A stretch of 64,000 nucleotides of DNA from Sporopachydermia quercuum (Eukaryota): contig BCGN01000002.1 of NCBI GenBank assembly GCA_001599295.1, forward strand, positions 1,550,001-1,614,000. Reading direction: 5' to 3'. How positions within the stretch are numbered: position 1 is the stretch's first letter; each line of letters begins with the position of its first letter. This document shows, piece by piece, positions 16,008-60,100 of this stretch. Under the pieces are notes generated by a model. The model saw only the letters and a program-made list of their open reading frames with translations, was not told the origin of the DNA and did no database searches. Position numbers and translations under genes: made by a program.

Positions 16008-16400
16008 ATGGTTATGCAATCTTTCACTCAAATCGTGTCATGGGTTCAAGCAGCTCGCAAGTTTCCAACTATCTACAACAATGTTTTGTATCCTATAGCC
16101 AAGTTCTACAGAGAGTTATCTGGATATCGTCAATTAGGATTGAAGTACAACGACTTGATTATGGAAGAAAATGATGTCGTTGAAACTGCTTTGAAGAGAT
16201 TACCACCTAAAGTCTCATATGATAGAGTTTATCGTCTCAGAACTGCTTTCCAACTTGGCTTAACTCATCATGTTTTACCAAAGAGTCAACGACTCACGGA
16301 AGCTGAAGATGATTTTTACTTACTACCTTACATTCTTGAATCTGAAAAGGAAATTCTCGAAAAGAAGTCCCTCAACTCCATCGAACTCTCCAAGATCTAA
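16008..16400 (+). CDS. QCR7: Cytochrome bc1 complex subunit 7
   Basis: SGYRQLGLKYNDLIMEENDVVETALKRLP..SYDRVYR, YLLPYILE. Confidence 0.96.
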   Translation: MVMQSFTQIVSWVQAARKFPTIYNNVLYPIAKFYRELSGYRQLGLKYNDLIMEENDVVETALKRLPPKVSYDRVYRLRTAFQLGLTHHVLPKSQRLTEAEDDFYLLPYILESEKEILEKKSLNSIELSKI

Positions 16401-17295
16401 GGCTAGCATATATTAAAATCAACGCATTTCAGATTCATTATGATAAAGATAAAGCAGTACAGTTAGCTCGACACGTCAGCTCATTGAACTTGAAACTCAC
16501 CTAGATTTAATTCCTATTGACGATTCAGTGCGTTGAAGCTGCCAGCTTTTTGGTTTAGATTTCATTATCAGTATTTACATACATCAATCATCGTGTTTAT
16601 TTAAAATTTTGTCGAAACATTAGAAGTACAAATTGAGCCCAAGAAAACTTTTATTTTCAAGAAAAACCGATTGTTTTCTTCTTGTCGTAGCAATGGCTTA
16701 CAAAAGATTTATAGTTTTCTTTGTAGTTTTGATTATGAAATACTGCCAGAACCAAAAGCACCTTGCTTTCAGAGAAGCTCAAGCTATCTCTAGAGTTTTA
16801 CAGACAAAAGTCCAATCTTTACGAAGTATCAGAAATATGACCTATAACCAGATAATTTTAGTGTGTAAAAAAAGTATGATAAAATGTCTATATGCTAAGC
16901 GTATTGTGACAAGTATTTCATATGTAAAGAAAAAGNAGTGTACAAGTTGATAAAGGTGATACTTTTATCATTCTGACTCATAAAATAACAAGACTGTGTA
17001 TCAAAAATGTATCGATTTCCATTGGGATAGTTGACATAACTTTACCTCAATAATTCGGAGAGATAATGCTGCTCAATAAGATATTGATAATAATGGAGAA
17101 GAAGAATATTAAAATCACAAGGGAACTCTGGTAGTTCATTTTCATTCCAGCGCCCGCGATGCTAACGTGATAGCGTAAAGAAATAATATGGATAAATACA
17201 AAACATTAAAAAAAAATATATATATAAGAAAAATAAATCCCGCCCTAACCAATAAAATAAACACGAATAAGTCATAAAATTGAGAAAGTTTATCT

Positions 17296-23011: not shown

Positions 23012-23653
23012 GTAATTGCATAATTGCATAATCTAGCTTCTTAATCCGCCTTTTTTACGTGTTTGTAGGTTTTTGCAAGTTAGATCAAATGTTCTTTATG
23101 TGGAAATTCCATATCACCAGTGTACTTCCCTCCTTTCTTAACTGATGCGTAGTCAATTTAGAGATATGAGATCTAAGAAATTCTTTTTTGGTAATCTCTT
23201 CTCAGTCTCCAAATCAACTGCTGCCACTATCGTGGGATTAGCAAAGGCAGCAATACTTATCGAACTGGAGTTAGAATTGGACGCTTTTCTTCTTCAAATC
23301 AGCAAATTAAAGTTGCGGGTTGAACTTCTTATCGCCATCTTCTTCTCTTTCCTCTCTTGACATTTGAACCATCTTAATCCTAAGCACTACTGGAAATGGC
23401 AAGTATATTGTGTGCGTGCCTGTGTGCGTGCTACTAGTATCAATATAATGTTATTACATATTTTGCTTCCTAATTTATTTCTTCCTTCCTTCAAATTTAC
23501 ACTTTATGCTGTGATCTTATATTGTGATCTTATATAGTTATTAAATCGTACGACTACTTATACCCCTCGATTGTTTGGCGTCTCATTTAAATGAGAATCA
23601 GACAAACAAACAAAAAATAAAGTAAAGAAAACCACGTCCATTTATTTGATTAT

Positions 23654-35044: not shown

Positions 35045-36148
35045 TTACATAGGGAGAGAAGGAAGCAAAATGCTAGTTCTACCCATCTCTTTTTCATCAA
35101 CAGAAATGTAAGAGTTTCGTTCATTTGATTCTTCCAAGTTCAGCTCGGAAAACTTAATCAAAGAAGCAATTGAAGCTTTATTGTTCAACTTTGGTTCTGT
35201 TAAGGTTGCAGTAGATTGAGATGTAGCCATAGATCCTAATGTGTGTTGTGAAGCAGAAGATGAAATATGATATGCATAGTTGGGTTGTCTGTGGGGAGTG
35301 CTGGTAAATACTAACTCCGAAGTATCCACACAAGTTGAATCGGGAATTATTTTGTAACCACTATTATCGTAAGAACCATGTTTGGGTATAGAATGTAGTT
35401 CACTAGTTAAACTTGCTATGCTTGCTGAGCTTGTGTGATAGTGACTTGGAGAGTCAGCTTCCATACTGAAGTAATGACTTTCAATAGACGTTGAATCAGT
35501 GGATGAGGTCACATTTGACGAAGCTGTAACAGTTGATTTCACTGATGTAATGGAAGAAATAGAGTCCATGAATTTTTTGGATTTTTTACTAGAAGATGAT
35601 CCAGAGTTACCAGAACTCAAATGGTATGATATTGTTGAACCCGCAGTGGTAGTGGGGGTGATAGATGTGTAATTTCCAGAATTACAAGCAGATTGCATTG
35701 CAAGCTGATGTTGATGTTGTTGTAGTAAAGAAACAGATCTTTGTCTGCTATGTGAAGGGCTAGATTTTAATGATGATGATGATGACGATGGTGTTAATGA
35801 CATAGGTTTGCTTGGTAACTGTGAGTTATATTTCCCAAAGTTATTATTCTCTAAAGTTGGGATATTATGATATTGGTCCATTCCAGAATCCATGTGAGAA
35901 ACATGAACAAAATTAGTTGGATTAGAAATTTGATACTTAGGAGTTGAGGTCGATTTAGAGCGAGATTTTGATTTTGTTCTTGGAGGAGAGTTTGATGAAT
36001 TGGGTGAAGAGGTCTTTAGTGCAGATGAAATGCGTGATAGTTTATTAGATAAATTCCTCGTTGGAGCATTTGCTCTAGTAGAGGTAGTTTGCTCAAAAGG
36101 AATATCCTCGTCTAGCCAGCTAGCAGATATAATACCTCGTTCAGTCAT
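35045..36148 (-). CDS. Ser-rich CRIB/PBD-motif protein without a kinase domain (Gic1/Gic2-like Cdc42 effector)
   Basis: ISNPTNFVHVSH matches the CRIB consensus and is preceded by a basic patch. 367-codon ORF lying next to VMA22 and SRB7, as GIC1/GIC2 do. Confidence 0.75.
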   Translation of the reverse strand: MTERGIISASWLDEDIPFEQTTSTRANAPTRNLSNKLSRISSALKTSSPNSSNSPPRTKSKSRSKSTSTPKYQISNPTNFVHVSHMDSGMDQYHNIPTLENNNFGKYNSQLPSKPMSLTPSSSSSSLKSSPSHSRQRSVSLLQQHQHQLAMQSACNSGNYTSITPTTTAGSTISYHLSSGNSGSSSSKKSKKFMDSISSITSVKSTVTASSNVTSSTDSTSIESHYFSMEADSPSHYHTSSASIASLTSELHSIPKHGSYDNSGYKIIPDSTCVDTSELVFTSTPHRQPNYAYHISSSASQHTLGSMATSQSTATLTEPKLNNKASIASLIKFSELNLEESNERNSYISVDEKEMGRTSILLPSLPM

Positions 36149-42653: not shown

Positions 42654-45452
42654 CTACAAAGGTAAATATCTATTGTCATTTTTGCTACTTCCAACCAGCT
42701 TGCCTAAAATACTTTTGACCCATTTAAATCTAGATGACTTTGATTTATCGATTCTGATTGGGCTACCAATATCAGGATATTTCCAACGTTTTAAAAGTAA
42801 ACTAGAAACAACGACAGATACCGAACTTAGAGCCATAGCTGCTCCTGCAACCACAGGATGTAATACAATTCCAAAAGGAAGTAGTATACCCATAGCGATT
42901 GGTAACATGATAGCATTGTAACCCAATGCCCAACCATAATTAGCCTTGATTTTGTCGAATGTTGCAACAGATAAATCTAATGCTGCTACTACACCATATA
43001 TGTCAGTTCTCAGCAAGATCATATCAGCAGTTGCTATTGCAACATCTGTTCCTGAGCCTACTGCAATACCAATATCAGCAGCTGCCAATGCAGGCGTATC
43101 ATTTACGCCATCACCAACAAATGCAACAACTTCTCCTTCAGCCTGTAAATCAGTCACCAAGGACACTTTATCTGCAGGTTTCATTTGAGAGTGAATTTCA
43201 CTCTTCTCTAAACCAACAAAACCACCAATCATCTCTGCAGTTTGTGCACCGTCTCCTGAAACCATTTCAGTCTTAATACCTGCTTTCTGTAATGCAGAAA
43301 TAGTTGCTTCAGCTTCAGGTTTCACTTCATCATACAAGGAAATTGTTCCCTTAAATTCTCTATCAACTGATACATATACAATAACTTTTCCCGATGGGTT
43401 ATCAACCACTTTCCAGCCCTGAACGTTATTCTCTGTCATTAGATCAGGATTTCCAATCAATACATATCTATTATCAACCTTTCCTCCTAACCCAAACCCA
43501 GGTTGATATAAAAAGTTTTCAACAGAACCAGAAAAGCGATCAGTTAAAGGCTGCATTCCCAATTTATCTTTAGCATAATCACACAACGCAGCACCAATAG
43601 GGTGTTCCGATTGTTCCTCTAATATTCCGATTAATCTCCAGTCTTCCTTCCCGAATGAACCTTCGACGTCCTCAACATTTAGTTTTCCCTTCGTTAAAGT
43701 ACCTGTTTTATCAAACAGTACAACCGTCACCTTAGTAGCTTGTTCTAAAACAGCACCGCCTTTGATTAAAAGACCATTAGAAGCTCCAATTCCTGTGCCA
43801 ACCATAACAGCAGTAGGGGTCGCCAATCCCAAAGCACAAGGACAAGCAACAACAATAACCGAAATACAGAGTTGTAAACAAACAAAGAATTTACCCTCTT
43901 TAGCGTTGAATAATGCTGGTGGACTTTTCAATAAATGCGAAAGAACCATCCATACGACAAATGTCAATATACCCAAAGAAACAATTGCTGGAACAAAGAA
44001 TGATGTGATCTTATCGCCAAATCTTTGAATAGGAGCACGTGAAGTTTGAGCTTCTGATACAAGTTCAATAATCTTTGCTAACTCAGTATTAGACCCAGTT
44101 CTTGTTAGTTTAACATGCAGAAGGCCCAATCCATTGATAGATCCTCCAATAATTGGAGCGCCTATAGTTTTCATTACTGGTTTTGATTCACCTGTTAAAA
44201 GAGATTCATCCAAGTATGACGAGCCATATACAACTACTCCATCAGCCGGTGCTTTTGATCCAGGATATAAAATTGCGATATCTCCTACTTTTGCTAATTC
44301 AGACGCAATATGTAATATATCTCCTGACTCTAAATCCGGCTCCTGATTATCTCTTGATTCTGCAGCTAGTTCAGAACCTGGTGAAAAAGTATCAAGTACG
44401 CTTCTTTCAGCTTTCTCTGCAGCTTCTGGATTAGAAAATATATAGCACATCGAAGGAGTTAGCGAAATGAGCCTTGAAAGAGCGCTTGACGTTTGTCCCT
44501 TAGCTTTATTTTCGATGTACTTTCCAAAGGTTATAAATACAATCAGCATGACTGCAGCGTCAAATAACACTTTTGGTGGAATACTAGACTGAAGTATTAT
44601 AGATACCACCATTGAAAAAATTGAAAAAATTAAAGATACTCCTGTTGAAATCATGACCAGACAATCCATAGTCCAACTGCTATGACGGAAAGCTTTGATT
44701 GCTGACTTATAATAAGGACTGGCGACAGACCCCATAATATAGCATGTGAGTAATAATGATATAAGTTGATCAATAAATAAACCCGGAAATATAGGAGCAA
44801 ATATCATACATTTTTTACCCCATCCTGTTTCGTATAACCAATGGAAGGCAATAATGGGTATCCCTAATATGAATGATAAAATGAACATTCTACGGTAACG
44901 CCGTATTTCTTGAACTTTTGCTAAAACGTCTAATTGTGCCGATGAGTTTATTGTGTCTGCAAGTACAGCATCAAATCCTCTATCTTCAACAGTTTCTATT
45001 ACATCTCTCACACCTAATTTCCCGTTGTTGAATGTAACTCGAGCTTCAGACGTTGAAAGAGAAACAACGGCCGATTCAACACCATCAAGTTCTAACAAGC
45101 CTTCTTCTATACTTTGAGAACAGTTAGAACAAGTCATTCCATAAACTTTCAATACCGTCGATTCTAAAGAGCTTCCATTAGAAACTTTACTAGATCCATT
45201 TTCGTTCTTTGATTCATCACTGTCTGTTTGCTCTTCTGATGATACTATATCAGCATCAAATCCTGTGTCTTCAATAGCTTCTTTCAAATCTTCCGGCGCT
45301 AAGCTTTTATCGTGAATGATAGTTCCTTTTTCAGTTATTAAAGAAACAGCAACTGAATCAACACCAGAAAGACTTTCCACAGTATTCGTTATCGAAGCAA
45401 CACATGCTCCGCATGTCATACCACCAATAGATATCACTGTTTTTTGCTTCAT
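42654..45452 (-). CDS. CCC2: P1B-type Cu(I)-transporting ATPase
   Basis: Two metal-binding domains (GMTCGAC, GMTCSNC), TGES, CPC in TM6, DKTGT, SEHP, GDGVND, YN and MALSS motifs. Confidence 0.95.
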   Translation of the reverse strand: MKQKTVISIGGMTCGACVASITNTVESLSGVDSVAVSLITEKGTIIHDKSLAPEDLKEAIEDTGFDADIVSSEEQTDSDESKNENGSSKVSNGSSLESTVLKVYGMTCSNCSQSIEEGLLELDGVESAVVSLSTSEARVTFNNGKLGVRDVIETVEDRGFDAVLADTINSSAQLDVLAKVQEIRRYRRMFILSFILGIPIIAFHWLYETGWGKKCMIFAPIFPGLFIDQLISLLLTCYIMGSVASPYYKSAIKAFRHSSWTMDCLVMISTGVSLIFSIFSMVVSIILQSSIPPKVLFDAAVMLIVFITFGKYIENKAKGQTSSALSRLISLTPSMCYIFSNPEAAEKAERSVLDTFSPGSELAAESRDNQEPDLESGDILHIASELAKVGDIAILYPGSKAPADGVVVYGSSYLDESLLTGESKPVMKTIGAPIIGGSINGLGLLHVKLTRTGSNTELAKIIELVSEAQTSRAPIQRFGDKITSFFVPAIVSLGILTFVVWMVLSHLLKSPPALFNAKEGKFFVCLQLCISVIVVACPCALGLATPTAVMVGTGIGASNGLLIKGGAVLEQATKVTVVLFDKTGTLTKGKLNVEDVEGSFGKEDWRLIGILEEQSEHPIGAALCDYAKDKLGMQPLTDRFSGSVENFLYQPGFGLGGKVDNRYVLIGNPDLMTENNVQGWKVVDNPSGKVIVYVSVDREFKGTISLYDEVKPEAEATISALQKAGIKTEMVSGDGAQTAEMIGGFVGLEKSEIHSQMKPADKVSLVTDLQAEGEVVAFVGDGVNDTPALAAADIGIAVGSGTDVAIATADMILLRTDIYGVVAALDLSVATFDKIKANYGWALGYNAIMLPIAMGILLPFGIVLHPVVAGAAMALSSVSVVVSSLLLKRWKYPDIGSPIRIDKSKSSRFKWVKSILGKLVGSSKNDNRYLPL

Positions 45453-47356
45453 TTTTGTATTCTTATTTGTACATTAACAATTTGCCTTTTATACTAAAAT
45501 CCCAAAAACCCACCCTTTTCGTTCTATCCCTCCTTTTCCTCGCTAAATCTGAACCAAGATTTCTTCTATGATTAAAAAAAAGCTCTTTGCCTAAATTTTC
45601 TCCTGTACTTCCGAGGTTCCCTAAAACAAGGCTTCTCAAGCACGTACTATTTTTATGCAATCAAATAATACAAATTATCTTCTGGATCCGCTTTTGTTAA
45701 CACATCAACCATAATACATTACAACCCATCCGTAGCCAGTTATACACACTTGAGAAATCAGATTAGTTTTCGGCATTCACCAATGAAAAACATCAAGGTC
45801 ACTCACTGTCTTGTAATGTTTAAACTTACACTATCATGGAAGATGATAGACAACAAACATTAACTGATACAATGTAAATCTATAAAGAAAGAAGAAGAAA
45901 TTAACACTGAAAATAATTTATTTAAGAGAAATACTGTTAAGAGGAAATAGGAATTGAAGAAAAAAAAAAAAAGAAAGAATTAACCAAAAAGGATATACTT
46001 TATTCTGGCTTCCTATCCTTTTATCTCTCCTATCATTTGAACGGCAATGTGCCAGTATAAGAAGAAAAGTAAGGTTTGTTTCCATATTGAGTTGGGAAAA
46101 ATAATTAAAAAATCAAGAAGAATCTCATGTCATTCTTGGTAAAACCAACTTCACGTCTCAATNTGAACGTACAGTCAATTTGAGTTAAACAAATTGTGGT
46201 GCATTTCTAATGAANTTTTCTTTTTATCACCTAGAAATTCATGAAATGTATGAATATTTCTTGTGAAATATGATACAATTTTCATATTTAGAAATGTGAT
46301 TCAAACGAGAAGTTTTGATGATTCCAACCATTAATATGAAAAAGATCGCTAATCAAGTGAAGGAATCTAAACCATGGTTCGCAGAAAAGGAGTTAAAGCT
46401 AAGCATAATTGGATTAAGCATTTTAGCCAAACCTTAGTTATATAGGAGTTGTACGATTTTGTCAATACTTTCATTTAAGTTGAAGAGATTTCGACTAGTG
46501 GATGAAATTTGGATTAGAAGGCTATTAGACATTTTGGAGAGAAACGTTCGAGAAAGAATCAAACAGACGAATAGGAATATTCAACTAATGTTAAGAAGAC
46601 ACGAAGAAGCTTCACCTGCTTAAATCTCATTGTGATTCTCTTCTTTCTGTAAAATTAGCTTGCAGTATAATAAGGTGACAATACTTTATTACTGAAAATA
46701 GAGCTGTGAGTAGGCCGCATTAACCTTAATCCTAACTTTAGGGATTTTAAGCATTATCAAATGTTTCATTGAAACTGAAGAAACATTTCAATTTATAATC
46801 TTGGATTGAATGATACAAGATCAAGTCTTATTCAAGCAAAGAACAAGTTCAACAGAACATTCAACAAGAAAATGTTTTAATTCATGCTTAGTATAAAATA
46901 TTTGCAACTTCGTTATGATGCGGTGTAATTATATCTCCTCTTAGTGCAATCAAATAGTTGTTCAGAGTAACTTAGATCCAGTAACTGGAATTGAAATAGT
47001 TTTATCTCAACCCCCTTAATCATAATAAACGCATTAATAATTTTCATAGTCCTACACACATACTAAACATACTAAAGTGTTTCTACCCCAAATTAGCTTG
47101 TATGAAAAGTTTTAAATTAAAGAAATGAAGTAATTGAAGATTTATGTATGCATTAGTTTTTCGTTTTCAATTCAGCCTTTCAGTGATGAAAACTTTTTGC
47201 TTCATATTCCTAGGGTTCAAACAGAGCTTTAATAAACGAGATCTTCTCCATTATATACGTTTGACTTTATAAATTGACGACAAACTTGGTTACACTGAAA
47301 AACCTATCCAAGAGAGGTAAACGAGATTTAAAATTGTCACAAAAAAAAATTGCAGA

Positions 47357-48442
47357 TCAAGATGTCAATTTCCAAATATTTGTTTTCCCATCATCCCCAC
47401 CTGTTATTAGGCACTCATCACTACCTATAGTAGCCCATTGAACACAGTTTACTTCATAAACACCATGACATCTATCAGCAGTTGCAACCACACTCCAATT
47501 TTTCTCTTCATTTTCTTCGTATACAACTAATTTTCCGTCAGCCCCAACAGTGGCAATCCTGTTACTCACTTTGCTCCAACTTACACCATATAAGCTTCTT
47601 TTACAAACTTTTGGTAGCGTTGATGAAAGTTCCCATTCTTCTTTTATTGGATCCGAGCTTCGAAATGTTGATGGCATTTTCCCTAGAAAAGCACTTGTAC
47701 CTCCTAGGCTGCTATCATTGGCATTAATATTTTGATATTTTCTATTGGAACCAACTCTTTCATAGACTTCAACATCTGCTTCATCGGTAACTGCTACCAA
47801 ACGTGCAGGCGTACTTTCATTGGAAAAATCTATCTCCCAGACAGTGCCTTTATTGATAGCAAGCTCACTGACACATACCCAATCACCTTCATCTTCATCT
47901 TCTCTGTATAGCCTAACAGTATCATCATAAGAACTACTAGCTACTAGTTCTTCAGATGGGTGCCATCTCACACATTTCACATCTTGACTATGCTCTTGTA
48001 ACACACTAATACATTCAAATTCTTCATTACTATCATCAGCTTCCCAGATCCACACACTTTTATCTCTAGAGCAACTAGCCAAAAAAAACCCATTATAACT
48101 CCAATCAACTGCTTTCACTTCATTCTCATGACCTTCAATGATAGCTAAAAGTTCCCATTCGTCATCTTCTTCACTCCAGATTGAAATAGTAGAGTCAAAA
48201 CTACCCACAGCAATAGATGGCGCTTCAGTGCCTGTTGTATCCGGTTTCCAACTCAAGCTTCTGCAACTTCGTTTATGTGCATCTTCAAGTACGGTTACCA
48301 GCTGCAGAGTATTCAAATTGTATATTCGGCAAGTCTTATCCCCTGACGCTGTAGCTAGTAATGGCTTCCTACTATGAACAGATACATCCCATACTCGATC
48401 TTTATGTCCTTCGAGACTTGTTACTAGTTTCAGTTCAATCAT
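47357..48442 (-). CDS. CIA1: Cytosolic Fe-S assembly WD40 protein
   Basis: [63 protein letters not shown]. Confidence 0.96.
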
Positions 48443-48942
48443 TCTTTTTCCAGTTCCAAACTGCGGTACTTATTAAGCTCCTTTGATCATAAATAGTCTC
48501 ATACCAGTAGAAATCAATGAGTAATTTAATAGATTGCTGAATTTGCTTCACTCACTCAAATCTTTCTCTTATGCTGAATAATGTATCCGCAAACCGATCT
48601 TTAGATGCCCCCCATTATCCTGTTTACCATCATAAAGCAACCCACAGCTGAGAATCTTAAAGAACACACACACGTATAATTTTATTTATGTTCTCCGGTT
48701 TATGGTCTCCGTTCTCAAAAAGAAAAGCGGAAGTGTTGTGAGGGTAGTTCTAAATACCAATAGTTACCGTTGCTCGAAGTGCCTGAAGGTTTTTAGGTAT
48801 TTTCATCATTCACAAAACATGAAGTAGAAAAATTGAATCAAATAAAGTTATTGATAATCTTATTATTGTGAAATATCAGAATATAAAAGCAAAATTTTCT
48901 TGATGATAAGGAACAGCGAAGGTGGTAGGGTAGAGTAGTAAG

Positions 48943-50634
48943 ATGTTTAGACATTTATCTCGACGAATTACTGCTAGGTCTAATGTTAGACTGAAAATTC
49001 AGATCCAACATGAAGGGATTCATAGCATCTCTTTAGTATTCCAGAGGAGTAAAGGAACTTCTGGGACGCCAGACGAAGAAAAAGAAAATGAGAGTTCAGG
49101 GTCTTTATCTCATTCTGTGGACAAAAGTAAGAAATCTCACGAAGAGCAAAATAAGAATGAGGGTGAGGAGCAATCATTCACTTTATCATCGTCCTTATCA
49201 ACATCTTTATTCCGGAAGCAAAGCTATGTCCCTTCAAAAGTTCATCCAAGGGTAACTTACGAACAACCACCACCACCTAAATCAATTTTCACCAAACCGA
49301 ATGTTCGTAAATGGCCTCTAAGACGGCTTATTTTACCTTTCCTAGGAATTGCAGGAGGCATTTGGACACTTTATCATATCAATTTGGCAATAGATGCATC
49401 ATCTGAAGGTAGACCGTTTCTTTCCTCAGCCAAAGAACCAAATGCTCTTGATCCTGATAAATTCATGACATATGTTATTTCTTACAAAGAGCAAATTTCA
49501 CCTGATCATTATCTCATCGAGTTGTCACCTACCATCAAAGGATATAATGCATTATCCAAATCACAGCTTTATTGGAATTCTAAAAGACTGTGGTCTATTG
49601 AAATCAAGCAACCCGAAATCCAGATAGTTAGAAGGTATACACCTTTACCATTCTCAGTTTACCAAGCACCCTCTGTGAAAGGATTTGAAGAAATCAAAAC
49701 ACCGCCTGTAATCAGGACTTATGATCCTCTTAAAGATGAAGGTCGTATGTTACTATATGTTAAAAAGTATGGCGATGGAGAATTATCTAGATGGCTTGTA
49801 TCAAGACCTGTTGGTTATAGATTGCAAGTGAGAGGAAAGTTCACGGAGTTCAAGTTCCCTTATTCTCCTTTAGATGAGCTGGAAGCGAGATCTGCTATAA
49901 CTGATGATCCATTACTACTTCCAGGGGATGCACCAGTCGATTACTTACAATATCCAAGACCTGATAATATCATATTTTTTGCTGCAGGCACAGGCATTGC
50001 CCCAGTTTTACAACTGCTTTATTCCCCAAATCCACCACGAGGCTTTACCACCGTCCATTACTCGGTTAGATCTCGTGATGAAATTCCACTTTTGAGGTAT
50101 ATGAAGATAGCTGAAGAGATTGGGAGAGCAAAGTTCATTTTTCACATTGATTCGGAAACTTCTAACCTTTCAATTAAAGATGTTCCGATTCCTGTGGCTT
50201 CTGAGTATAGAGAACGAATTTCCAAATGGGACAAAATTGTAGAAGAGGAAGAAATCATCAAACAGCAACTTAAAGAAAAATTACAAAATAAACAAAAAGA
50301 ATTATCAATGGCAGAGAAAACTGGAGTTCCAACTGATGTTTCTAAGCTTCTATTGGAAAAGAAACAACCTTTACCCAGTGAAGTGCCTTTGGGTAGCTAT
50401 ATTGACAATTTTGAAACTAACAGGAAACACGTTAAAACAACAGTCTATCGTACTGCTATTGAACAGGCACTGGCTGAAAAGAATCTACCGAAAGATCCAG
50501 CATTAGCATTAGTTTGTGGGCCTGACGGCTACATTAAATATGTTGCGGGACAAAAGGAATATGATGGTCCGGGACCTATTGGAGGTTTATTGAAAGCAAA
50601 AGGCTGGAATGAAGATAATGTTGGAAAGATGTGA
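48943..50634 (+). CDS. CYC2: Mitochondrial FAD-dependent oxidoreductase for cytochrome c heme attachment
   Basis: Presequence plus TM, LWSIEIKQPEIQIVRRYTPLP, YVKKYGDGELSRW, FAAGTGIAP, VCGPDGYI..AG.K, GGLLKAKGW. Confidence 0.88.
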   Translation: MFRHLSRRITARSNVRLKIQIQHEGIHSISLVFQRSKGTSGTPDEEKENESSGSLSHSVDKSKKSHEEQNKNEGEEQSFTLSSSLSTSLFRKQSYVPSKVHPRVTYEQPPPPKSIFTKPNVRKWPLRRLILPFLGIAGGIWTLYHINLAIDASSEGRPFLSSAKEPNALDPDKFMTYVISYKEQISPDHYLIELSPTIKGYNALSKSQLYWNSKRLWSIEIKQPEIQIVRRYTPLPFSVYQAPSVKGFEEIKTPPVIRTYDPLKDEGRMLLYVKKYGDGELSRWLVSRPVGYRLQVRGKFTEFKFPYSPLDELEARSAITDDPLLLPGDAPVDYLQYPRPDNIIFFAAGTGIAPVLQLLYSPNPPRGFTTVHYSVRSRDEIPLLRYMKIAEEIGRAKFIFHIDSETSNLSIKDVPIPVASEYRERISKWDKIVEEEEIIKQQLKEKLQNKQKELSMAEKTGVPTDVSKLLLEKKQPLPSEVPLGSYIDNFETNRKHVKTTVYRTAIEQALAEKNLPKDPALALVCGPDGYIKYVAGQKEYDGPGPIGGLLKAKGWNEDNVGKM

Positions 50635-50871
50635 TTAGAATATCGGCAAATTAAAACAATTTTTATTCTTGAGTAGATAGGGAGAGCGAGGTATCTTGTA
50701 TATATATGTATTTGATTTTTCTATATTATTATTAATGCATCATAAATCATAAATGTATGGTTATATACATTGTGATACCAGTAATTGTAACCTTGAGTCG
50801 TTGTTAGTTGATTCATTGAATCAACCAACCCACTACGTCACATGCTGTATAGTCATTTTCTCCTGGGCATA

Positions 50872-51974
50872 TCATCTTTGTTCTTTTCTTATTGGTACTT
50901 TGATACCCTGAGAGGCGAACTTCGCACTCAATTTTGTACTTTCAATAACACCAGGAAACTTTTTGGCTGAATACACTTTGAAGACATCAGAAAATACTGA
51001 TGAAGTACAAGGAGTAGGATCATTAGGAAGTCTTTCACCAGGGCTTATAGTTACGCTTGTGGGATAAACCGATGGACTGCGTTCTGGTTTTCTACCTTTA
51101 TCAGTACCATCGAAATCATCGAAAGAATAATCACCATAGCCCTCTAATACATTGTCAGATATTGTAGAATCGATAGACTGAAGCATGTCGGAAAGATCAA
51201 AAAGATTGAATTTAAATCTAAACTCTCCATCAAATCTTATTGACAGGTCATACAGAATGAACCATATTCCTAGTTCATCTTTAAGATCATATAGTTTATA
51301 AGCTGTGGTTGCTAGTGATCCTATCAGGTTTCGTATTGGAGGAGCAACAGCTGCACCAGAATTGGCTGAGCTGCTTGACATTCTGCGACTCAAAGAAGAA
51401 GTAGACGAGGAATTGTTTGATATTACTTCATTGCTGTTTTGTAGGCGTGCTAGTTCATTATCATTTTTTGAAGTTGACTGTAAGTGATCACTAGACTCAA
51501 CTTCAAGCTCAGATTGACCCTGGACAAATCCTAGATTTTTCTTCATATCACTCGACCAAAGTTCTACCATTAGAAAATAATGGGTAGGGATGATATCGCT
51601 GTAAAGGGAAAAAANAAGAAAAAGTTTGATTGCGGTTAGTAACCTGAGCAATTCAATATCAAACTTGATTTCAGTGAAGCACGAATATTCTAACCTCAAA
51701 AGGTTATCATGAGATATGAAAAAAAAACTTACGCAGCAGGCACTTCTTGACCATTCTTATAGATTCTCAATCTTATACAAGGAGTAGGCGATACTTGCCT
51801 TCGATCTTTGTCACCTAATCCGCACATTCGGGCTCTGAGTGGTTGTTGTTCCACAGTCAGTCTATACTCAAAATCTATTTTGTGTAATCGATTAGTAATA
51901 TTCAAAAATCAGAATCCAATCCATGTTAAATTGTCAACTGTCAAACTAATGAAATTCTACATACCCCCGTTCAT
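50872..51974 (-). CDS. velB: Velvet-domain transcription regulator, VelB-like, 292 aa; exons 51965-51974, 51733-51874, 50872-51598
   Basis: Exon 2 encodes YRLTVEQQPLRARMCGLGDKDRRQVSPTPCIRL. Exon 3 encodes YFLMVELWS, RNLIGSLATTAYKLYD..GIWFILYDLSIR..GEFRFKF and VYSAKKFPGVIESTKLS..FASQGIKVPIRK. Introns 51875-51964 (GTATGT..TACTAAT..TAG) and 51599-51732 (GTAAGT..TACTAAC..CAG) are in phase. Confidence 0.92.
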
Positions 51975-53582
51975 TGTAATATTCAATTTTTCTATCTCAA
52001 TAGAGCAGCTTCTCGATGCAAGCTTATCTTATCGAGAGAGCCTCAGTTTACGCTGCTAGTCAACGAATGAACAAGTAACCTATTGATACAACTGGTGATT
52101 TCAGATCTAGCAATAGTATTATCCGTAAATTCAGCTTAGCTCAATCCACTTCTGTATCATACACCATGAATCACTTTATCGCAATGGGCTTTATCAGTAT
52201 TGTCAGATGATTCAGCAAATAGTTTTTCAGTATTTCATTATTGTTCAATTCTTGGTGGCATTCAATCACATGTCCTTTGAAAAGCTTCTTTCTTCCTTTT
52301 CTGCGGATCAGCTGAAATATTTATTCATAGGGTTCTACTGAAAGAAAGAAAAAAAATGAGAAAAAAAACTACTTGTTTGTTCGAAAACAGTCTCTAATAG
52401 TGAGTATCTGTTGTCCTCAATCCTGGTCTACTTCTTAAAGAATTTAATCTGAGATTATCTCTAACCTTCAACATTGTCTCCCTTTTTATTTTTCTTCCTC
52501 GGTGCTACGTCCATGGAACCTATAAAAGTTGTCTTAAATACTAACGATGGCTAATAGTTTACAACTTCAACCAGTGCGATTAGAGTAGCGTTCAATAATC
52601 AAAGTACCTGCTAAATATGTGTTCAGCCGTATTTTTATAGCCTTATTATGGGGCTTGAATATAGTGAATCACCAAAAGAGGAAATTCCCATCAGTAAGCT
52701 AGAACAATACTATCATTTCAGAACACAACAAAGCAGTAAAGTAAAGTTCTCGAATTCAGATTCCATTTACTGCAAGGAAATAAGTTACGATAAAGATGCA
52801 GGAGCCAATAATTGTTGTATACCTAAATATGTATGAATCCTCTACAGTTAGAAATCGGTGACCAACAATTTGTTTACTGGGAATGGTTTGGAGTATGATT
52901 CCTTTTCATTACTGTTAGTTCCTTTCTTGGTAAATTAATTTCTAAGTCTTGGCTACGTTGCAATTGAAGGAGCTAAAACAATTCTGGAAAGAGCATTTTT
53001 TGCAGGTATCTATTATGATGTACATATGTTTCAAAAAAGAGGCTGACAGTTTTTAGACAAACTAGTACTGAAACTAAATTTTAGTCTCTATTACTTGCAT
53101 ACTACAGCTTATGTATTGCAGCTCGAACTAATTGATAAGGTTGCCAAGAGGAAGATTAGTGATAGAGTAAAAAAAGTATGGTTTATTTGGGTTGACAACA
53201 ACTTAAGTGTTGGTATAATTGACAGATATTTTCCTTTATACAACTAATGTAGCTGATTCGTTGCATACATATGCATATTTCGTAGATGTTAATTATTTCA
53301 TATTCTTAAGTGAGGGTCCATAAAACCACACTATCAGAGAAAACGAAAGGTATTGTTATGTCGGGTAAGATATTTGATATGATCATGTGATATATGAGCC
53401 GGGGTATTTCTGGTGATGTTTCTCAGCTAATCAGGTGCCTGAATTACTTGATTTGAAAAGAGATTCAATTGATTAGAAGTTTAAGTAGAATAAATAAATA
53501 TGGATTATTTATATTGATAAAGGACCCTAAGTAGGTTCGGATTAAGGTGATCCAAGTACGTGTGAAAATTCCACTGTCGAAG

Positions 53583-54728
53583 ATGAAGATATCAAGATCT
53601 GGAATAAGAGAAGTATTTAGAGGGTTCAGTTGTTCATCTACGGTTCTGACTGGAGCACCCACCGTGAATAGAACCGGAATTGTTCCAGCATCAAATTCGG
53701 TGATTTTTTCAGGAATTCAGCCTACCGGAGTTTTTCATCTTGGAAACTATCTAGGTGCCGTAAATAATTGGCTCACCTTATCACAGTCTGTGGATTCAAG
53801 CTCGAAATTGATATTCATGGTGGCAGACCTTCATGCTATAACTGTTCCAAAAGATCCAAAAGAATTGAAAGAATATCGAGAAAAGGCAATTGCTTCCATA
53901 CTCTCTGTTGGATTGGATCCCAAAAACTGCATAATCTATTATCAGTCTGAAATTCCTCAACATTCTGAGCTTTCATGGATTTTGTCTTGTATCACAAGTA
54001 TGAGTTATCTTAATAGAATGACTCAATGGAAATCTAAAGCAAACCTCAAGGAAAACACTTCAATATCTGATTCAAAAACACTCAAAAATCTTAAACTTGG
54101 TCTGTTTTCATATCCCGTGCTACAAGCTGCTGATATACTTCTTTACAAGGCAACACATGTCCCAGTAGGTGAAGATCAAGCCCAACATCTAGAACTTACA
54201 AGACAAATTGCTACTACCTTCAATTCAAGATTCGGTAACTTTTTTCCCTTACCTGAGACATTGTTAACGCCCACGTCAAAAGTACTCTCTTTGAGAAATC
54301 CTGAAAAGAAAATGTCGAAATCAGATCCAAACAAAAATGCAACAGTTCTTCTTACCGATGATGAAGATACCATTGCATCTAAAATCAGGAAAGCGGTTAC
54401 TGATTCTATTCAAGGCCCTTTCTTGTATGATCCGGAAGTACGACCTGGAATTTCCTCGTTGCTATCAGTTGTTTCTGGCTTAACTAGGAAGCCCATCGCT
54501 GACATAGTAATTGATATCAATGAAAATGCCAAAGTGAAAAATCACCAACAATTCAAGGAGTACGTGACAGATGTTGTAATTGATAGCTTACGGAACCCAA
54601 GAAAAGAGTATGAGAGACTAGTTAATGATAAATCTTATTTAAAGAAGATATCTGATGAGGGAGCGGGAAGAGCCGGGGATATTGCCTCAATTGTTCTCGT
54701 TGATGTTAAGAAATTGGTGGGCTTGTAA
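53583..54728 (+). CDS. MSW1: Mitochondrial tryptophanyl-tRNA synthetase
   Basis: FSGIQPTG.FHLGNYLGA, LNRMTQWKSK, YPVLQAADIL, VPVGEDQAQHLEL, KMSKS; presequence-like N-terminus from the ATG at 53583. Confidence 0.96.
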   Translation: MKISRSGIREVFRGFSCSSTVLTGAPTVNRTGIVPASNSVIFSGIQPTGVFHLGNYLGAVNNWLTLSQSVDSSSKLIFMVADLHAITVPKDPKELKEYREKAIASILSVGLDPKNCIIYYQSEIPQHSELSWILSCITSMSYLNRMTQWKSKANLKENTSISDSKTLKNLKLGLFSYPVLQAADILLYKATHVPVGEDQAQHLELTRQIATTFNSRFGNFFPLPETLLTPTSKVLSLRNPEKKMSKSDPNKNATVLLTDDEDTIASKIRKAVTDSIQGPFLYDPEVRPGISSLLSVVSGLTRKPIADIVIDINENAKVKNHQQFKEYVTDVVIDSLRNPRKEYERLVNDKSYLKKISDEGAGRAGDIASIVLVDVKKLVGL

Positions 54729-54938: not shown

Positions 54939-56663
54939 TCATACAACAGAGAAATTCTGTTTAATNCCTTGCAACTCAAGTTCTCGCTCCCTCAGATGCC
55001 TTTTCCTCTCATTGATCTCACTCTCAAGTATTCCTTCTATTTCGTTCAGCTGAGCTTGCTCCATAAACAGTTTCCGAGCCTTTGTAGAGTCAAATTGTTT
55101 CACTGAAGAACTGGGTACAGACTTTGCAATTTCTCTGTTCTGGTAGGATCGTTGATCATGAAAACCACTAAAATATTGAAATTAGAAAAGAAAAAAAGAA
55201 AGAAAAAAAGCAAGCCAGTATCAATTATGGGAATTAAGAGAATGACCATCAGTTTATTCGAGAGGTATTCGACATACAGTAATGAATCTTGAGATATCAA
55301 AGGATTCTGAATAGAGAGTCTGGACGATCTGTAACGTTCGTACAGCACATTATGAGTTATCTCCTTGAACTCGTTTAAATGAGAACCAAAAAGGACTGCT
55401 CTCAATGCCAAAAAATCGGAATGATCAGGATCATCAACTAAAGAAGTCAGTATTAACTTGTCCTGAAAACATTTAATCGTCCATTAAGTGATTGCTCCAT
55501 ACCTCTTACTTTTCCCCAGGGATAATCAATATAGTAAAACACTTTCCCATCTTTCTCAACTTTTGTGTCGCTACCAATTACTGCAAAAGGAACCAATTCT
55601 TCCAAATGAGAGTTTCCTTCAATAGAATCGCTATCACTAAGTTCATTCTCGAACGAGTAGACAGGTATGGTCAGTTTTTTGATATCATTCCGGATCAGCT
55701 CTTTGCAACGCTTCAATTCAGTTTCTGTCAAACAATCTGCTCTGCCTATAACAGGAATAATATTCACATAACCTGACAATGCTGTCATGAAGCTAATATC
55801 AAGTTCCCTCAATCTGTACCGNAAAAAAGAACATGCCCAGTTTGTCAGTATACATTTCATTGCTGAAAACACAAAATCATACGACTACTGAAAAGTCAAA
55901 CTCATACCCTCTACCAGTGGGTTGAATGAAGTATAGTGCAACGTGTACTCTGTTATCAACAAATTTAGGATTTCGATTAATTCGGCATTCTTCAGTCAAA
56001 ACGTCATTGAATTGATCTTCAATGTATGCAACAATTTTAGAGCAGCTACTTCTGTCAGCATGTTGACAAGACTTGGAAATTATTTGAGCATTGATGATGC
56101 CTATTTCAACATATTTCAGTATTGGTTCCACTGTAGGTTATATTTCATACCAGTATGTATTGTTGATATTATCACCAAATCCAGGAGTATCAACGACATT
56201 CAAGCTGATTGGGGTAGAGTTTTTTTCTACAACTTCTAGTTGAGAGCACTGGTTAGTCAATGTTATAAGTACTTGCTAGTTGGAGATCAGTAAGCCAATC
56301 GACATAGTTTCCTTGTCAACCTTACCGGCATGATATGTTTTGATTGACATTCCTGGGTCGCTGTCAGCATTCTCTGGGGAAATAGTTCCTCTATCTATTA
56401 CATTTTTATTACAAAGAGTGTTAATAAATGTCGATTTCCCTGTACCAGATCTCCCACATATTAGTATCGTAAGTTGAAGGCCTCTTTTAACCATTTTACG
56501 CCTTCTCATCTCCTCAGGAGTAATCTAAGTATTTGAACAGTTAATTTCCCAAACCTACAAACACTGTGGATAATAAACAAAGCATCTTTCCATTACAACA
56601 AGTAAAATCCTTTCAGCTTCCAGTCAATCTTACGCTTGAAAACGATTCCCATTTATGACTCAT
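54939..56663 (-). CDS. SPR28: Cdc11-group septin, Spr28-like, 383 aa; exons 56634-56663, 56326-56524, 56151-56235, 55908-56045, 55503-55813, 55278-55437, 54939-55167
   Basis: EMRRRK..KRGLQLTIL..GRSGTGKST (G1), DTPGFGD (G3), NRVHVALYFI, VIGRADCLT (G4), PFAVIGS, YPWG..VDDPDHSDF, HNVLYERYR, C-terminal coiled coil. All six GT-AG introns have branch motifs and consistent phases. Septin identity is firm; SPR28 versus CDC11 is less so. Confidence 0.82.
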
Positions 56664-57110: not shown

Positions 57111-60100
57111 TTAATATACATTATCAATAACACGAATCATCTTCGCAAAGGGTAGTAAAACGCGTTGCATTTCCCGATTTTTAGAAGTAGCTAAAAGAAC
57201 AGCTTTCAGAAGATCATGCTTACTATGACCACATAGTTTAGGATCCCAGCTAGGAGCTTCATTCTCGATTTCAGCCGATATCTGTTGTTTATTATTGGAA
57301 TCGTTCACATTGCTGTGAGTCATCTCTATATCATCTTCTTCGTCTTCAGCGTCGTCACTTATATCTTCAGGACTTTGAGTTGAAAGTAATATAGATGGGC
57401 CTAACAACTCGGTGCACAGTTCCTGTAACCTTCGTTTCATACCTTCCTCCGCTAGTCTTCTGGCGTAGGAAATCAACAGCTGCTTTAATTCTTCACCTTC
57501 TTGTAAGACAATGGTCGCGCCTAACCTATTTTCCAGATGTGCTATTGAAACTACTGATTCCAATCCTTCAAATCCTTCCCTCATTAGCATGGCTTTAGCA
57601 ACACGTTGTAGCATTTTGGCTCTTCCTTTCCTAACATACTCTTCATTAGTCTTACGTTCAATTGTTTCAACTGTACTGTCTTTAGAGCTATTGCTTCCCG
57701 ACAATGTATCCCAATAGTAAGAACCAAAGGCCCACCAAGTATCACTGACTCTTTGCCAACATTTCAAATTCCCATTAAATACATATCCTGAACCATTACT
57801 AAGAGTTATGATGGCACATCCTCTTCCAGTTACTCCACAAAGTGTGATACTATCGCCACGATAAAGTCCTGTATCTGCATAGTGTCTTGCTGCAGATTCT
57901 AATAAGGGAGCAATCGACACTGGAGAATGGATCGCTTTTCTTTTCACAATATCCCAAAGATACATTAATCCAGTACACGTGACAGCTAGCAGAAAGTTTT
58001 TGTTGTTCTCTAAAAACGATAAGGGTGCCCCTAGGACCATTGGTGGTAATATTTTACGACCCGCAGGGGAATACACATGGATAGTACCTGAATCAGTTGC
58101 TACAGACCAAAACAAGTTTTGAGTTCCTGTAGCTAAGGATACATAATGCGGAATAAAATCATGAAATACTGGTTTAGAGTTCGTCACTACTGTGATCTTT
58201 GTTGGAACTTGCTCGGACCCTGTTCCATTACGGACTTCAATGAAGCTATCATCGTGATTTCTCAAATTTTCACCCATTTTGAAATATGCTCTAATTCTAG
58301 GGGTAGCAATACGGACATTTGACGAAGCAACTGAAGGATTAATTAACGCTGACCCAATAAACTCATAAACTTCAGTTTGGTTAGCTAGAGAAGCTTTCTT
58401 TTGAGGTTGCGAGTCACCATTTATTCCTTCAATTGCTTTCCGTTTTGCAATTATTGATGTTGTGTCTTTGGTTAACGCATGTGATGCTTTTGAAAATCTC
58501 ATTTCTGTTGCCACATTACTGTTGGAAACTTTTGAAACCGAGCTTCCTGTAGATGTCAAAGTCTTTGAAGATGATCCAGAGTTTGATGGTTTAGAGCCAG
58601 TGGAGATTAAAGTAGGCTCAATTCTTTTCTTCCCTGATTTNATCTCAATACTGTTCACTTTGTTTTTCGGATCTGTCTTATCGGAACTTTTATTCTCTAC
58701 CGTTTTAGTTTTCGATCGACTTTTTTCCAATGTTGGTTTTGTATTTGTTTCTTTCGCGCCATCTTTACTNGTTGTTTCTTCAATCGGTGTAGCTCTGCCT
58801 TCGGTTATAATTTCAATCTCAGGCTCTTTCTCGTCAGTACTAAATTTTGGATCATAGTTATGTAGTTCTTCGTGCTTATGGCTCTCTAATTGTTCCTCCA
58901 AAAGTCTTGAATCGCTTATTCTTCCGATTTCCATATTATCAAGCAATAGCACTGTTAAAACACCTTCTAAAGAGGCCACAGACAGAGAACTTCCATCCGG
59001 ACTCCATACTAAGTCGGTTATTGAATTGTGACAAATATTGAGGGCTACTAATAATGGCCTGGGATTAAGAGTATTCCAAATAACCAGAGATCTATCCTGA
59101 CCAGCAGTAGCGATTACAGTGAAAGGGTTAGATACTCTATTAGAAGCATCGACGATCTCATATAAGTTGGGATTGAACGCAGCAACATCACAAGCCTTTG
59201 AATGACCAATCAAAGAAATTTCTGAGTCCCATGTACCAGTGTTCATAATAGCAACCACAGGTAATTTACCATTCGTTGAATTTGGAACTGCAATATGGTT
59301 GCCATCTGGAGACCAAGAACATCGTCGATACAAAACACTGCTTTTCTTCGTTGGTTCTAAATTTCGCTGTGATAATTCCTTTGATCCATTAATTCCTGTA
59401 TCGTCAGCTTCTGGTCTCATAAAAAAGCTTTCAACACATTTAACGTGGTCAATTGAGAGTTTTTCCCTATCTAGCCACTTGTATTTATAAATCTCTAAAG
59501 TTGGATCTGTTGATATGATTATGAATTGATTTGCTGGATCAACTAGTGTTCCTCGTATAATGGTTGGTAATGGCTTTGCTTCAATCATTAATGCTATAAT
59601 TCGTGCGAAGAAAAACATCAAAGTAGCAAAATGTTAGTTATAGTCCAATGATCAAAATGAACCCAAAGTCTGGTCCAATAAACATATGTCCAAGAATGAA
59701 ATGAAAAAAATGCAACTTACACATTGTAAAAACATTGTATATTCGAACTTTCCTTTCCAAACCCCCTGAAACAATCATTCTTGAATCGGGACTCCAAGCC
59801 AGATCCGTCACGGCTTCTTTTGACTCTTTAAATACATGTCGCAACTGTAGAAGATCATTGTTTGTTGTGCTCTTTTTGTTGTATTTCCAAATTTTGAGAG
59901 TGCAATCTTCAGAAGCAGAAGCAAACCATTTGCCTGTTGGTGAAAACCGTATGGACCTAACAGGACCATCATGAGCTTCTAATATTAAAAAAGGCTTGAT
60001 ACTTGACTTGGAACTCGGATCCTCATTAACATTCTTTATATCAGAGTCTTTGAAAATTACTACTGACCCATCTATCATTCGTTGTTAGAAACTCTTGAAT

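What the first reader, a model, noticed from the sequence alone, without database searches (positions are those of the whole stretch)
50872..51974. Intact VelB-type velvet regulator in a budding-yeast genome
Seen: a three-exon gene, only partly visible in the ORF track, with a complete velvet domain split by a low-complexity insert and almost no sequence outside the domain. Established: velvet proteins (VeA/VelB/VosA/VelC) are NF-kB-fold regulators of development and spore maturation in filamentous fungi and are absent from S. cerevisiae and C. albicans; VelB works as a dimer with VeA or VosA. Inference: this yeast retains a minimal, uncharacterised velvet circuit, possibly for sporulation or dimorphism.
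Basis: partly seen in the sequence, partly recalled or inferred. Interest (0 to 1): 0.8.

Follow-up and report, generated by a model that had tools for sequence, protein, structure and literature searches.

The report
VelB-type velvet gene in a yeast
This is a real, apparently intact gene for a small VelB-like "velvet" DNA-binding regulator in what looks like a budding yeast, but such genes are already catalogued in several budding-yeast lineages, so it is a new member of a known group.

Summary
On the minus strand, 51974..50872, a three-exon model gives an 879-nt CDS (292 aa) with no internal stop. Both introns carry yeast-type signals. Pfam Velvet (PF11754) is covered at positions 1-42 by exon 2 and 51-236 of 237 by exon 3.

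The protein is VelB-like. Both exons score best against A. nidulans VelB among solved structures. A Ser-rich insert of about 61 aa sits at the site of VelB's 99-aa insertion. In an ML tree it lies in a 34-row clade (99/95) holding all 16 Saccharomycotina-named rows, sister to Pezizomycotina VelB/Ryp3. It keeps 57 of 61 near-invariant columns.

Yeast origin is supported by composition, CUG=Leu and a Spb1 closest to the S. cerevisiae chain.

It is not new in kind. A 2024 survey (PMC10845976) defines a Sac-Tap-VelB clade of 32 proteins, and public records name velvet proteins in Wickerhamomyces, Cyberlindnera, Ascoidea, Nadsonia and Lipomyces.

Not tested: splicing (no RNA run listed), partners (no genome held), and a tree with VeA, VosA and VelC. 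Any role in sporulation or dimorphism is analogy only. Interest is low to moderate.

The parts
51965..51974 (-). Exon 1: ATG plus 7 nt (codes M-N-G and the first base of the next codon)
   Evidence: Sequence read. A GTATGT 5' splice site follows directly. The model is checked. Without this micro-exon the first in-frame ATG would remove the conserved N-terminal strand.
51875..51964 (-). Intron 1, 90 nt: GTATGT ... TACTAAT, 16 nt, TAG
   Evidence: The first AG after the branch motif restores the frame. This is a prediction; there are no RNA data.
51733..51874 (-). Exon 2: N-terminal part of the velvet domain
   Evidence: Pfam PF11754, E 1.7e-16, profile positions 1-42. Best solved-structure match is VelB 4n6r_B, 45.7 bits.
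51798..51815 (-). Codons for G-D-K-D-R-R, the loop A equivalent (DNA-contact loop of velvet proteins)
   Evidence: These residues align identically to the GDKDRR stretch of A. nidulans VelB. Loop A basic residues are needed for DNA binding in VosA, and VelB R80/R81 correspond to them (PMC3876986 passages).
51599..51732 (-). Intron 2, 134 nt: GTAAGT ... TACTAAC, 36 nt, CAG (holds the N at 51615)
   Evidence: Retention would give an immediate TAA stop. This is a prediction; there are no RNA data.
50872..51598 (-). Exon 3: rest of the velvet domain, with stop TGA at 50874-50872
   Evidence: Pfam PF11754, E 8.5e-45, profile positions 51-236 of 237. VelB 4n6r_B scores 99.5 bits.
51337..51519 (-). 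Ser/Asn-rich low-complexity insert (about 61 aa) inside the velvet domain
   Evidence: It lies between the stretches that align to VelB residues 110-131 and 235-289. That is the site of VelB's 99-aa insertion, residues 132-231 (PMC3876986). Composition is 18 Ser and 7 Asn of 61.
51022..51171 (-). Second variable loop (about 50 aa, acidic) before the C-terminal conserved block
   Evidence: Query residues 143-192 of exon 3 lie between the VelB-aligned blocks that end at VelB 289 and start at VelB 301. Loops of variable length at this site in other yeast homologues are seen.

Best explanation
The locus is a resident, intact nuclear gene of a budding yeast (Saccharomycotina, with CUG read as Leu). 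It encodes a 292-aa protein that is essentially one VelB-type velvet domain.

Shown here:
- The reading frame is open across three exons.
- The Velvet domain is complete.
- The protein is closest to VelB among solved velvet proteins.
- It has the VelB-specific internal insert.
- The GDKDRR loop A is conserved.
- 57 of 61 near-invariant family columns are retained.
- It sits in the Saccharomycotina branch of the VelB clade.

Inferred from the family (PMC3876986):
- After removal of two short yeast-type introns, the protein folds into the NF-kB-like beta-sandwich.
- It pairs through one face of the sandwich with a second velvet domain. That partner could be another copy of itself, or a VeA- or VosA-like protein encoded elsewhere in the genome.
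- It contacts DNA through the basic loop A, while the Ser-rich insert stays disordered and is dispensable for pairing.
- Because almost nothing lies outside the domain, any activation, localisation or signal-sensing function probably comes from a partner.

By analogy only, its targets would be genes of a developmental switch such as ascospore maturation or a change of cell form.
For: Gene model and domain:
- Three-exon model with canonical splice signals.
- Pfam Velvet on both coding exons, jointly covering 1-42 and 51-236 of 237.

VelB likeness among solved structures:
- Exon 3: VelB 99.5 bits, VosA 59.4, VeA 33.4.
- Exon 2: VelB 45.7 bits, VeA 29.7, VosA 24.9.
- A profile of 23 yeast-clade homologues (window protein not included): VelB 319.9 bits in one stretch, VosA 132.6, VeA 116.6.
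- The insert lies at VelB's insertion site.

Named database hits:
- Of the 224 rows listed (120 + 80 + 24, with some proteins repeated), 10 carry VelB, Ryp3 or 'velvet complex subunit B' names.
- None carries a VeA, VosA or VelC name.

Tree (IQ-TREE, 60 rows):
- The window protein is inside a 34-row clade (UFboot 99 / SH-aLRT 95) with all 16 Saccharomycotina-named rows.
- That clade is sister to a 16-row Pezizomycotina VelB/Ryp3 clade (98/92).
- Both are separated (100/98) from 10 rows that form the other side of that split; 8 of them carry names of early-diverging fungi.
- The FastTree of 207 rows agrees.

Constraint: 57 of 61 near-invariant columns are kept, and the 4 changes are conservative.

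Resident, yeast-like context:
- CDS GC 38.9% and GC3 27.6%, within the range of 10 neighbouring genes.
- 4 of 4 CTG codons fall on Leu-dominated columns.
- Housekeeping neighbours.
- Spb1 is closest to the 841-aa chain 6elz_w (749 bits, against 633 and 575 for the next Spb1 chains).
Against: - No transcript evidence. No RNA run could be examined, so both introns and the 10-nt first exon remain predictions.
- No VeA, VosA or VelC sequences entered the tree. Exclusion of VelC in particular rests on names of hits, on the insert, and on the statement in PMC3876986 that only VelB has the insertion.
- The window protein sits on a long branch (0.98 changes per column). Its place inside the non-Lipomycetales yeast subclade is unresolved.
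- The nearest relative is only 56-58% identical over the kept columns.
- No genome is held, so it is unknown whether any partner (VeA-like, VosA-like, LaeA-like) exists. The window holds none.
- DNA binding, dimerisation and biological role are all inferred.
- The organisms behind the PDB Spb1 chains are recalled, not given by the tool.
Confidence: 0.85

Rival explanations
1. It is a velvet protein of another class (VosA-, VelC- or VeA-like, or a yeast-specific class) that only looks like VelB.
For: No VeA, VosA or VelC sequences could be placed in the tree (searches returned only VelB-like proteins or proteins of early-diverging fungi). The window protein has a long branch. VelC has no solved structure to compare with.
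Against: Both exons, and the profile of the yeast clade, score far higher on VelB than on VosA or VeA. The insert sits at the VelB-specific site. 10 named hits are VelB/Ryp3 and none is of another class. The clade mirrors the species split between Saccharomycotina and Pezizomycotina inside a VelB group.
Confidence: 0.05
2. It is a silent relic or a mis-modelled gene. The introns are not removed, or the gene is not expressed, so no functional protein is made.
For: No RNA evidence of any kind (no holder listed). The first exon is only 10 nt. The protein is the most divergent non-paralogous member of its subclade.
Against: The frame is open over 292 codons across three exons. Canonical 5' splice site, branch motif and first-AG 3' splice site are present in both introns. 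57 of 61 near-invariant residues are kept and the 4 changes are conservative. Codon composition is like that of the neighbours.
Confidence: 0.07
3. The contig is not from a budding yeast, or the gene arrived by recent transfer or contamination from a filamentous fungus.
For: Its proteins are not in the protein collection (0 of 5 exact look-ups found). The Atlas gives only 'Ascomycota'.
Against: The gene groups with Saccharomycotina proteins, not with Pezizomycotina VelB. It has GTATGT / TACTAAC-type introns. GC and GC3 match the flanking housekeeping genes. The window's Spb1 is nearest the chain I recall as S. cerevisiae. The window is compact, with about 57% in long ORFs and few interruptions.
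Confidence: 0.03

Closest known systems
Aspergillus nidulans VelB (PDB 4n6r chain B; PMC3876986)
   Same: It is the best solved-structure match for both coding exons (99.5 and 45.7 bits). It has an identical GDKDRR loop A, near-identical C-terminal SAKKFPGVIEST...QGIK.PIRK block, and a velvet domain interrupted at the same place by a low-complexity insert.
   Different: The window protein has 292 aa, against 369 for VelB (length from PMC3876986). It has about 6 residues before the domain where VelB has about 45-60 (the profile match starts at VelB residue 46). Its insert is about 61 aa and Ser/Asn-rich, not 99 aa and Pro/Gln/Gly/Tyr/Ser-rich. It has an extra acidic loop of about 50 aa where VelB has about 11 residues. 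Partners and function are untested.
Saccharomycotina VelB-like proteins (published clade 'Sac-Tap-VelB', 32 proteins, PMC10845976). Examples: Wickerhamomyces ciferrii BN7_3365 (272 aa), W. anomalus WICANDRAFT_78865, Cyberlindnera jadinii CYBJADRAFT_168166, Ascoidea rubescens, Nadsonia fulvescens, Lipomyces spp.
   Same: They share the tree clade (99/95). The Phaffomycetales members share the minimal architecture, with very short N- and C-termini. W. ciferrii shares the unusual MCGLGDKDRRQ variant of the N-terminal motif.
   Different: Identity is at most 56-58% over the kept columns, and the window protein sits on a long branch. That the rows of my tree equal the published clade is my inference.
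Histoplasma Ryp3 and other Pezizomycotina VelB orthologues
   Same: They form the sister clade in the tree (98/92), with the same domain and insert layout. One record is named 'velvet family protein required for yeast-phase growth', which is the basis of the dimorphism analogy.
   Different: They are longer proteins (about 300-450 aa) with N-terminal extensions. They act within a four-member velvet family, which is not shown here.
A. nidulans VosA (PDB 4n6q) and VeA (PDB 9i2s)
   Same: Same Pfam family and fold class. The loop A basic residues are conserved.
   Different: Scores are much lower (59.4 and 33.4 bits on exon 3; 24.9 and 29.7 on exon 2). Their velvet domains are continuous, without the insert (PMC3876986).
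Rel homology domain of NF-kB
   Same: Works alike according to PMC3876986: a beta-sandwich that dimerises and reads DNA with loops.
   Different: No sequence-level membership was tested or claimed here.

Membership tests
Velvet family (Pfam PF11754) | Complete velvet domain above Pfam's gathering score | tested here: met
   Exon 2 scores 61.4 bits and exon 3 scores 154 bits, against a cut-off of 25. Together they cover profile positions 1-42 and 51-236 of 237.
Velvet family (Pfam PF11754) | Basic loop A residues used for DNA contact | tested here: met
   G-D-K-D-R-R aligns identically to VelB. It aligns to VosA K39/R41/K42 as K/R/R. The role of these residues is taken from PMC3876986 passages. 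Binding itself is not tested.
VelB class | Closer to VelB than to VosA or VeA | tested here: met
   Window exons. Profile of 23 yeast-clade homologues: 319.9 vs 132.6 vs 116.6 bits.
VelB class | Velvet domain interrupted by a low-complexity or disordered insertion at the VelB site | tested here: met
   The insert lies between the blocks aligned to VelB 110-131 and 235-289. The VelB insertion is at residues 132-231 and is unique among the four A. nidulans velvet proteins (PMC3876986). Disorder itself is not computed.
VelB class | Groups with VelB to the exclusion of VeA, VosA and VelC in a phylogeny | tested here: inconclusive
   It groups with named VelB/Ryp3 and yeast VelB-like rows, apart from proteins of early-diverging fungi. 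No VeA, VosA or VelC sequence could be fetched for the tree.
VelB class | Forms dimers with VosA or VeA, or with itself | not testable with these tools
   No genome is held in which to find partners. The spliced protein cannot be handed to the folding tools, and no job was sent.
Saccharomycotina VelB clade | Nested among budding-yeast VelB-like proteins | tested here: met
   34-row clade with support 99/95, holding all 16 Saccharomycotina-named rows. Lineages were checked for 6 genera; the rest are recalled.
Expressed, spliced gene | Spliced transcript across both introns | not testable with these tools
   No RNA holder was listed.

The most novel reading that the evidence does not exclude
In this yeast, VelB may be the only velvet protein left. 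In that case it would work as a bare-domain homodimer, a minimal NF-kB-like switch for ascospore maturation or cell form. The gene sits between the CIA1-like and MSW1-like genes, which I recall as direct neighbours in S. cerevisiae. That would mark the spot where the Saccharomyces lineage lost its last velvet gene.
Probability: 0.12. Interest if true: 0.55.

Novelty: new member of a known kind. Interest (0 to 1): 0.25.

Why it matters
Velvet regulators control development, spore maturation and secondary metabolism in filamentous fungi, and the yeast-mould switch in Histoplasma.

In the searches I ran I saw no functional study of a velvet protein in any budding yeast. Those searches cover open-access papers only. 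A 292-aa, domain-only VelB in a compact and probably tractable yeast genome would be a convenient minimal system. It could be used to ask what the ancestral job of VelB was, and whether the domain alone suffices for DNA binding and pairing.

As a genomic observation, however, it adds one more species to a distribution that is already published. It does not change what is known.

Tried and rejected
- **Own genome.** None is held, so VosA, VeA and LaeA could be sought only in the 64-kb window. The window has no second velvet gene, and no methyltransferase family appeared among the Pfam hits of 41 ORFs other than the velvet exons (two of them were scanned twice).
- **RNA evidence.** No RNA holder was listed.
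- **Exact look-ups.** 0 of 5 window proteins were found in the collection.
- **Pulling in VeA, VosA and VelC for a four-paralogue tree.** The 'longer' search with exon 3, the exon-2 search and the exhaustive exon-2 search (404 hits, 150 listed) gave VelB-like proteins or fragments ending at a shared position. They also gave proteins that sit outside the ascomycete VelB group; I looked up 10 of these and 8 carry names of early-diverging fungi. The four-paralogue tree was therefore not done.
- **ESM Atlas.** It gave only 'Ascomycota' for the Trp-tRNA ligase and only 'velvet' for exon 3. Neither helped with class or taxon.
- **Mid-sporulation element GNCRCAAAW.** 4 matches in the window against 8.86 expected, and none in the upstream region 51975-53546. 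This gives no hint of sporulation control.
- **Bacterial promoter and terminator scan.** At chance level and not relevant to a eukaryote.
- **Earlier scan notes.** Nothing on this genome or on velvet.
- **Supplements of PMC10845976.** Closed.
- **Structure and complex prediction.** Not run.

Full report
**What is there**

The finding's coordinates match a minus-strand gene exactly. The ATG is at 51974-51972 and is followed after 10 nt by GTATGT. There is a TACTAAT 16 nt before a TAG. A 142-nt exon follows, ending just before GTAAGT. A TACTAAC lies 36 nt before a CAG, and a last exon runs to the TGA at 50874-50872.

Joined by coordinates in a script, the CDS is 879 nt and encodes 292 aa with no internal stop. 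In each intron the first AG after the branch motif is the one that keeps the frame. The next two AGs after intron 1 lead straight into stops, and retaining intron 2 gives an immediate TAA (read). The only N near the gene (51615) is inside intron 2.

Without the 10-nt first exon, the first in-frame ATG would cut off the conserved first strand.

**Is it a velvet domain?**

Yes. Pfam Velvet (PF11754) matches exon 2 at E 1.7e-16 (profile 1-42) and exon 3 at E 8.5e-45 (profile 51-236 of 237). The 8 missing profile positions are bridged by the residues around the exon junction.

An HMM built from 207 velvet rows hit 2 of 1348 six-frame pieces of the window, namely these two exons (E 2.1e-54 and 2.4e-22). 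The next best piece had E 0.81. So this is the only velvet gene in the 64 kb.

About 6 residues precede the domain and 2 follow it. Two variable stretches interrupt the domain. One is a Ser/Asn-rich insert of about 61 aa (18 Ser, 7 Asn).

**Which velvet class?**

Solved structures:
- Exon 3 scores 99.5 bits on A. nidulans VelB (4n6r_B), 59.4 on VosA (4n6q_A) and 33.4 on VeA (9i2s_A).
- Exon 2 scores 45.7, 24.9 and 29.7 bits on the same three.
- A profile of 23 budding-yeast homologues, without the window protein, gives VelB 319.9 bits in one stretch, VosA 132.6 and VeA 116.6.

Insert position: the first insert lies between the blocks aligned to VelB 110-131 and 235-289. According to the passages I read in PMC3876986, VelB alone among the four A. 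nidulans velvet proteins has its domain interrupted, by 99 residues at 132-231. That insertion is predicted to be disordered and is dispensable for binding VosA.

Named hits: among the rows listed in the three word-indexed searches (120 of 372 hits, 80, 24), 10 carry VelB, Ryp3 or 'velvet complex subunit B' names. None carries a VeA, VosA or VelC name.

**Tree**

From the 344 proteins stored up to that point, I kept the 206 whose match to the window protein covered the N-terminal, middle and C-terminal blocks. The other 138, mostly fragments, were dropped.

A FastTree of 207 rows put the window protein in a 34-row group with every budding-yeast-named row.

I then chose 60 of the 207 rows: 16 Saccharomycotina-named, 16 Pezizomycotina-named, 8 from early-diverging fungi, 19 unnamed, and the window protein. 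I ran IQ-TREE with the mixture model. The result:
- The window protein lies in a 34-row clade (UFboot 99 / SH-aLRT 95).
- That clade holds all 16 Saccharomycotina-named rows: eight Lipomycetales, two Wickerhamomyces, Cyberlindnera, three Ascoidea, Nadsonia and Trichomonascus.
- It is sister to the 16-row Pezizomycotina VelB/Ryp3 clade (98/92).
- Both are separated (100/98) from 10 rows of Mucoromycota, Glomeromycota, Chytridiomycota, Zoopagomycota and two unnamed.

Lineages of six genera were checked; the rest I assign from memory.

Caveats:
- The window protein has a long end branch (0.98).
- Its place inside the non-Lipomycetales subclade (86/90) is unresolved.
- Its best identity is 56-58%.
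- No VeA, VosA or VelC sequence is in the tree. Every attempt to fetch them returned VelB-like proteins, or proteins that fall outside the ascomycete VelB group, most of them from early-diverging fungi.

**Is it intact and resident?**

Of 61 columns that are at least 90% conserved among 49 ascomycete rows, the window protein keeps 57. The four changes are P>T, E>D, L>F and I>V. On the same count the Ascoidea and Nadsonia proteins keep 49-56.

The GDKDRR loop is identical to that of VelB. In VosA the corresponding basic residues are required for DNA binding (PMC3876986).

CDS GC is 38.9% and GC3 is 27.6%. Both lie within the range of ten neighbouring genes (37.4-42.3% and 24.8-33.4%).

**Is it a yeast?**

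No genome is held, and 0 of 5 window proteins are in the protein collection. Indirect evidence agrees with a budding yeast:
- The tree placement above.
- GTATGT/GTAAGT with TACTAAY introns.
- Long uninterrupted housekeeping ORFs filling about 57% of a 35.9%-GC window.
- All 4 CTG codons of the gene sit on columns where 45-57 of 59 homologues have Leu, so CUG is read as Leu.
- A Spb1 of the same length class that scores 749 bits on chain 6elz_w, against 633 and 575 on the next Spb1 chains. That these chains are S. cerevisiae, Chaetomium and S. pombe is my recollection.
- The Cia1-like neighbour's best solved match is named 'Ydr267cp'.

**What is already known**

- PMC10845976 (2024). I saw the search listing, passages, and section 5 in full. 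It reports that only part of the ascomycete yeasts have velvet genes. [quoted passage not shown] The Saccharomycotina ancestor had velvet genes that most lineages lost.
- PMC7539958 (passages), quoting Bayram & Braus 2012, which I did not see. [quoted passage not shown]
- PMC5106798 (passages). It reports 12 velvet-domain genes in Saccharomycopsis fibuligera.
- PMC6231087 (passages). It added nothing specific on velvet in yeasts.
- Public records already name velvet proteins in W. ciferrii, W. anomalus, C. jadinii, A. rubescens, N. fulvescens, Trichomonascus, Lipomyces and others.
- The Phaffomycetales proteins (190-272 aa) share the bare-domain architecture.

In my three literature searches I saw no functional study of a velvet protein in a budding yeast. 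Most 'velvet' hits with yeast names refer to the assembler of that name.

**How it most likely works**

Shown: an intact VelB-type domain with a conserved DNA-contact loop and conserved core.

Inferred from the A. nidulans structures (PMC3876986):
- It forms a beta-sandwich that pairs through one face with another velvet domain.
- It reads DNA with loop A.
- The Ser-rich insert is a disordered loop not needed for pairing.

With nothing outside the domain, regulation and activation probably come from a partner. That partner could be a Sac-VeA-type or VosA-type protein elsewhere in the genome, or a second copy of the protein itself. The biological role (spore maturation, change of cell form) is analogy only. 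The upstream 1.57 kb holds no mid-sporulation element.

**Verdict**

This is a new and rather divergent member of the published budding-yeast VelB clade. Splicing, partners and function remain untested. The supplements of PMC10845976 may already list this species.

Noticed in passing
window 42654-54725: The gene order here is CCC2-like Cu-ATPase (42654-45449, -), Cia1-like WD40 (47357-48439, -; best solved match named 'Ydr267cp'), a 566-aa FAD/NAD oxidoreductase-like gene, the velvet gene, then a mitochondrial Trp-tRNA ligase-like gene (53547-54725, +). From memory, CIA1, MSW1 and CCC2 are neighbours in S. cerevisiae (YDR267C-YDR270W). If so, the velvet gene and the oxidoreductase would be extra genes inside a conserved block.
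   Followed up: no
window 48934-50634 (+): A 566-aa ORF directly downstream of the velvet gene. It has only sub-threshold matches to the FAD_binding_6 and NAD_binding_1 families (18.9 and 21.5 bits, both under the cut-offs) and a long N-terminal extension. It may be a divergent cytochrome-b5-reductase-like protein.
   Followed up: no
window 55103-55884 (-): Septin matches lie in two overlapping reading frames: profile 126-229 in 55456-55884 and profile 231-275 in 55103-55483. An N lies at 55822. This could be a frameshift, a short intron or a sequence error. One GNCRCAAAW match lies inside it at 55561.
   Followed up: no
window 57111-60084 (-): The Hir1-like gene is split between two ORFs, 59641-60084 (WD40 repeats) and 57111-59621 (Hira domain). 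Ns lie at 58641 and 58770. The cause is probably an intron or a frame break.
   Followed up: no
whole window: 23 isolated single N bases are scattered through the window. Several fall inside genes (Spb1, PMT, Hir1, OTCase), so translations of those genes carry X.
   Followed up: partly
window 14505-26179: A run of Ap4A phosphorylase-like, QCR7-like, PBN1-like and SPB1-like genes. It includes an ORF with no Pfam match at 17296-18540 (414 aa). A second such ORF lies at 35045-36148 (367 aa). From memory, APA1, PBN1 and SPB1 are also close together on S. cerevisiae chromosome III.
   Followed up: no
P0199: A 995-aa lichen-fungus record (Haloplaca sp.) combines Velvet with WD40 and cyclophilin families. 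It looks like a gene-model fusion of neighbouring genes rather than a real architecture.
   Followed up: no
P0188, P0195: Two 'velvet complex subunit b' records are attributed to the oak Quercus suber. They cluster inside Pezizomycotina VelB in the 207-row tree, so they are probably fungal contamination of a plant assembly.
   Followed up: partly
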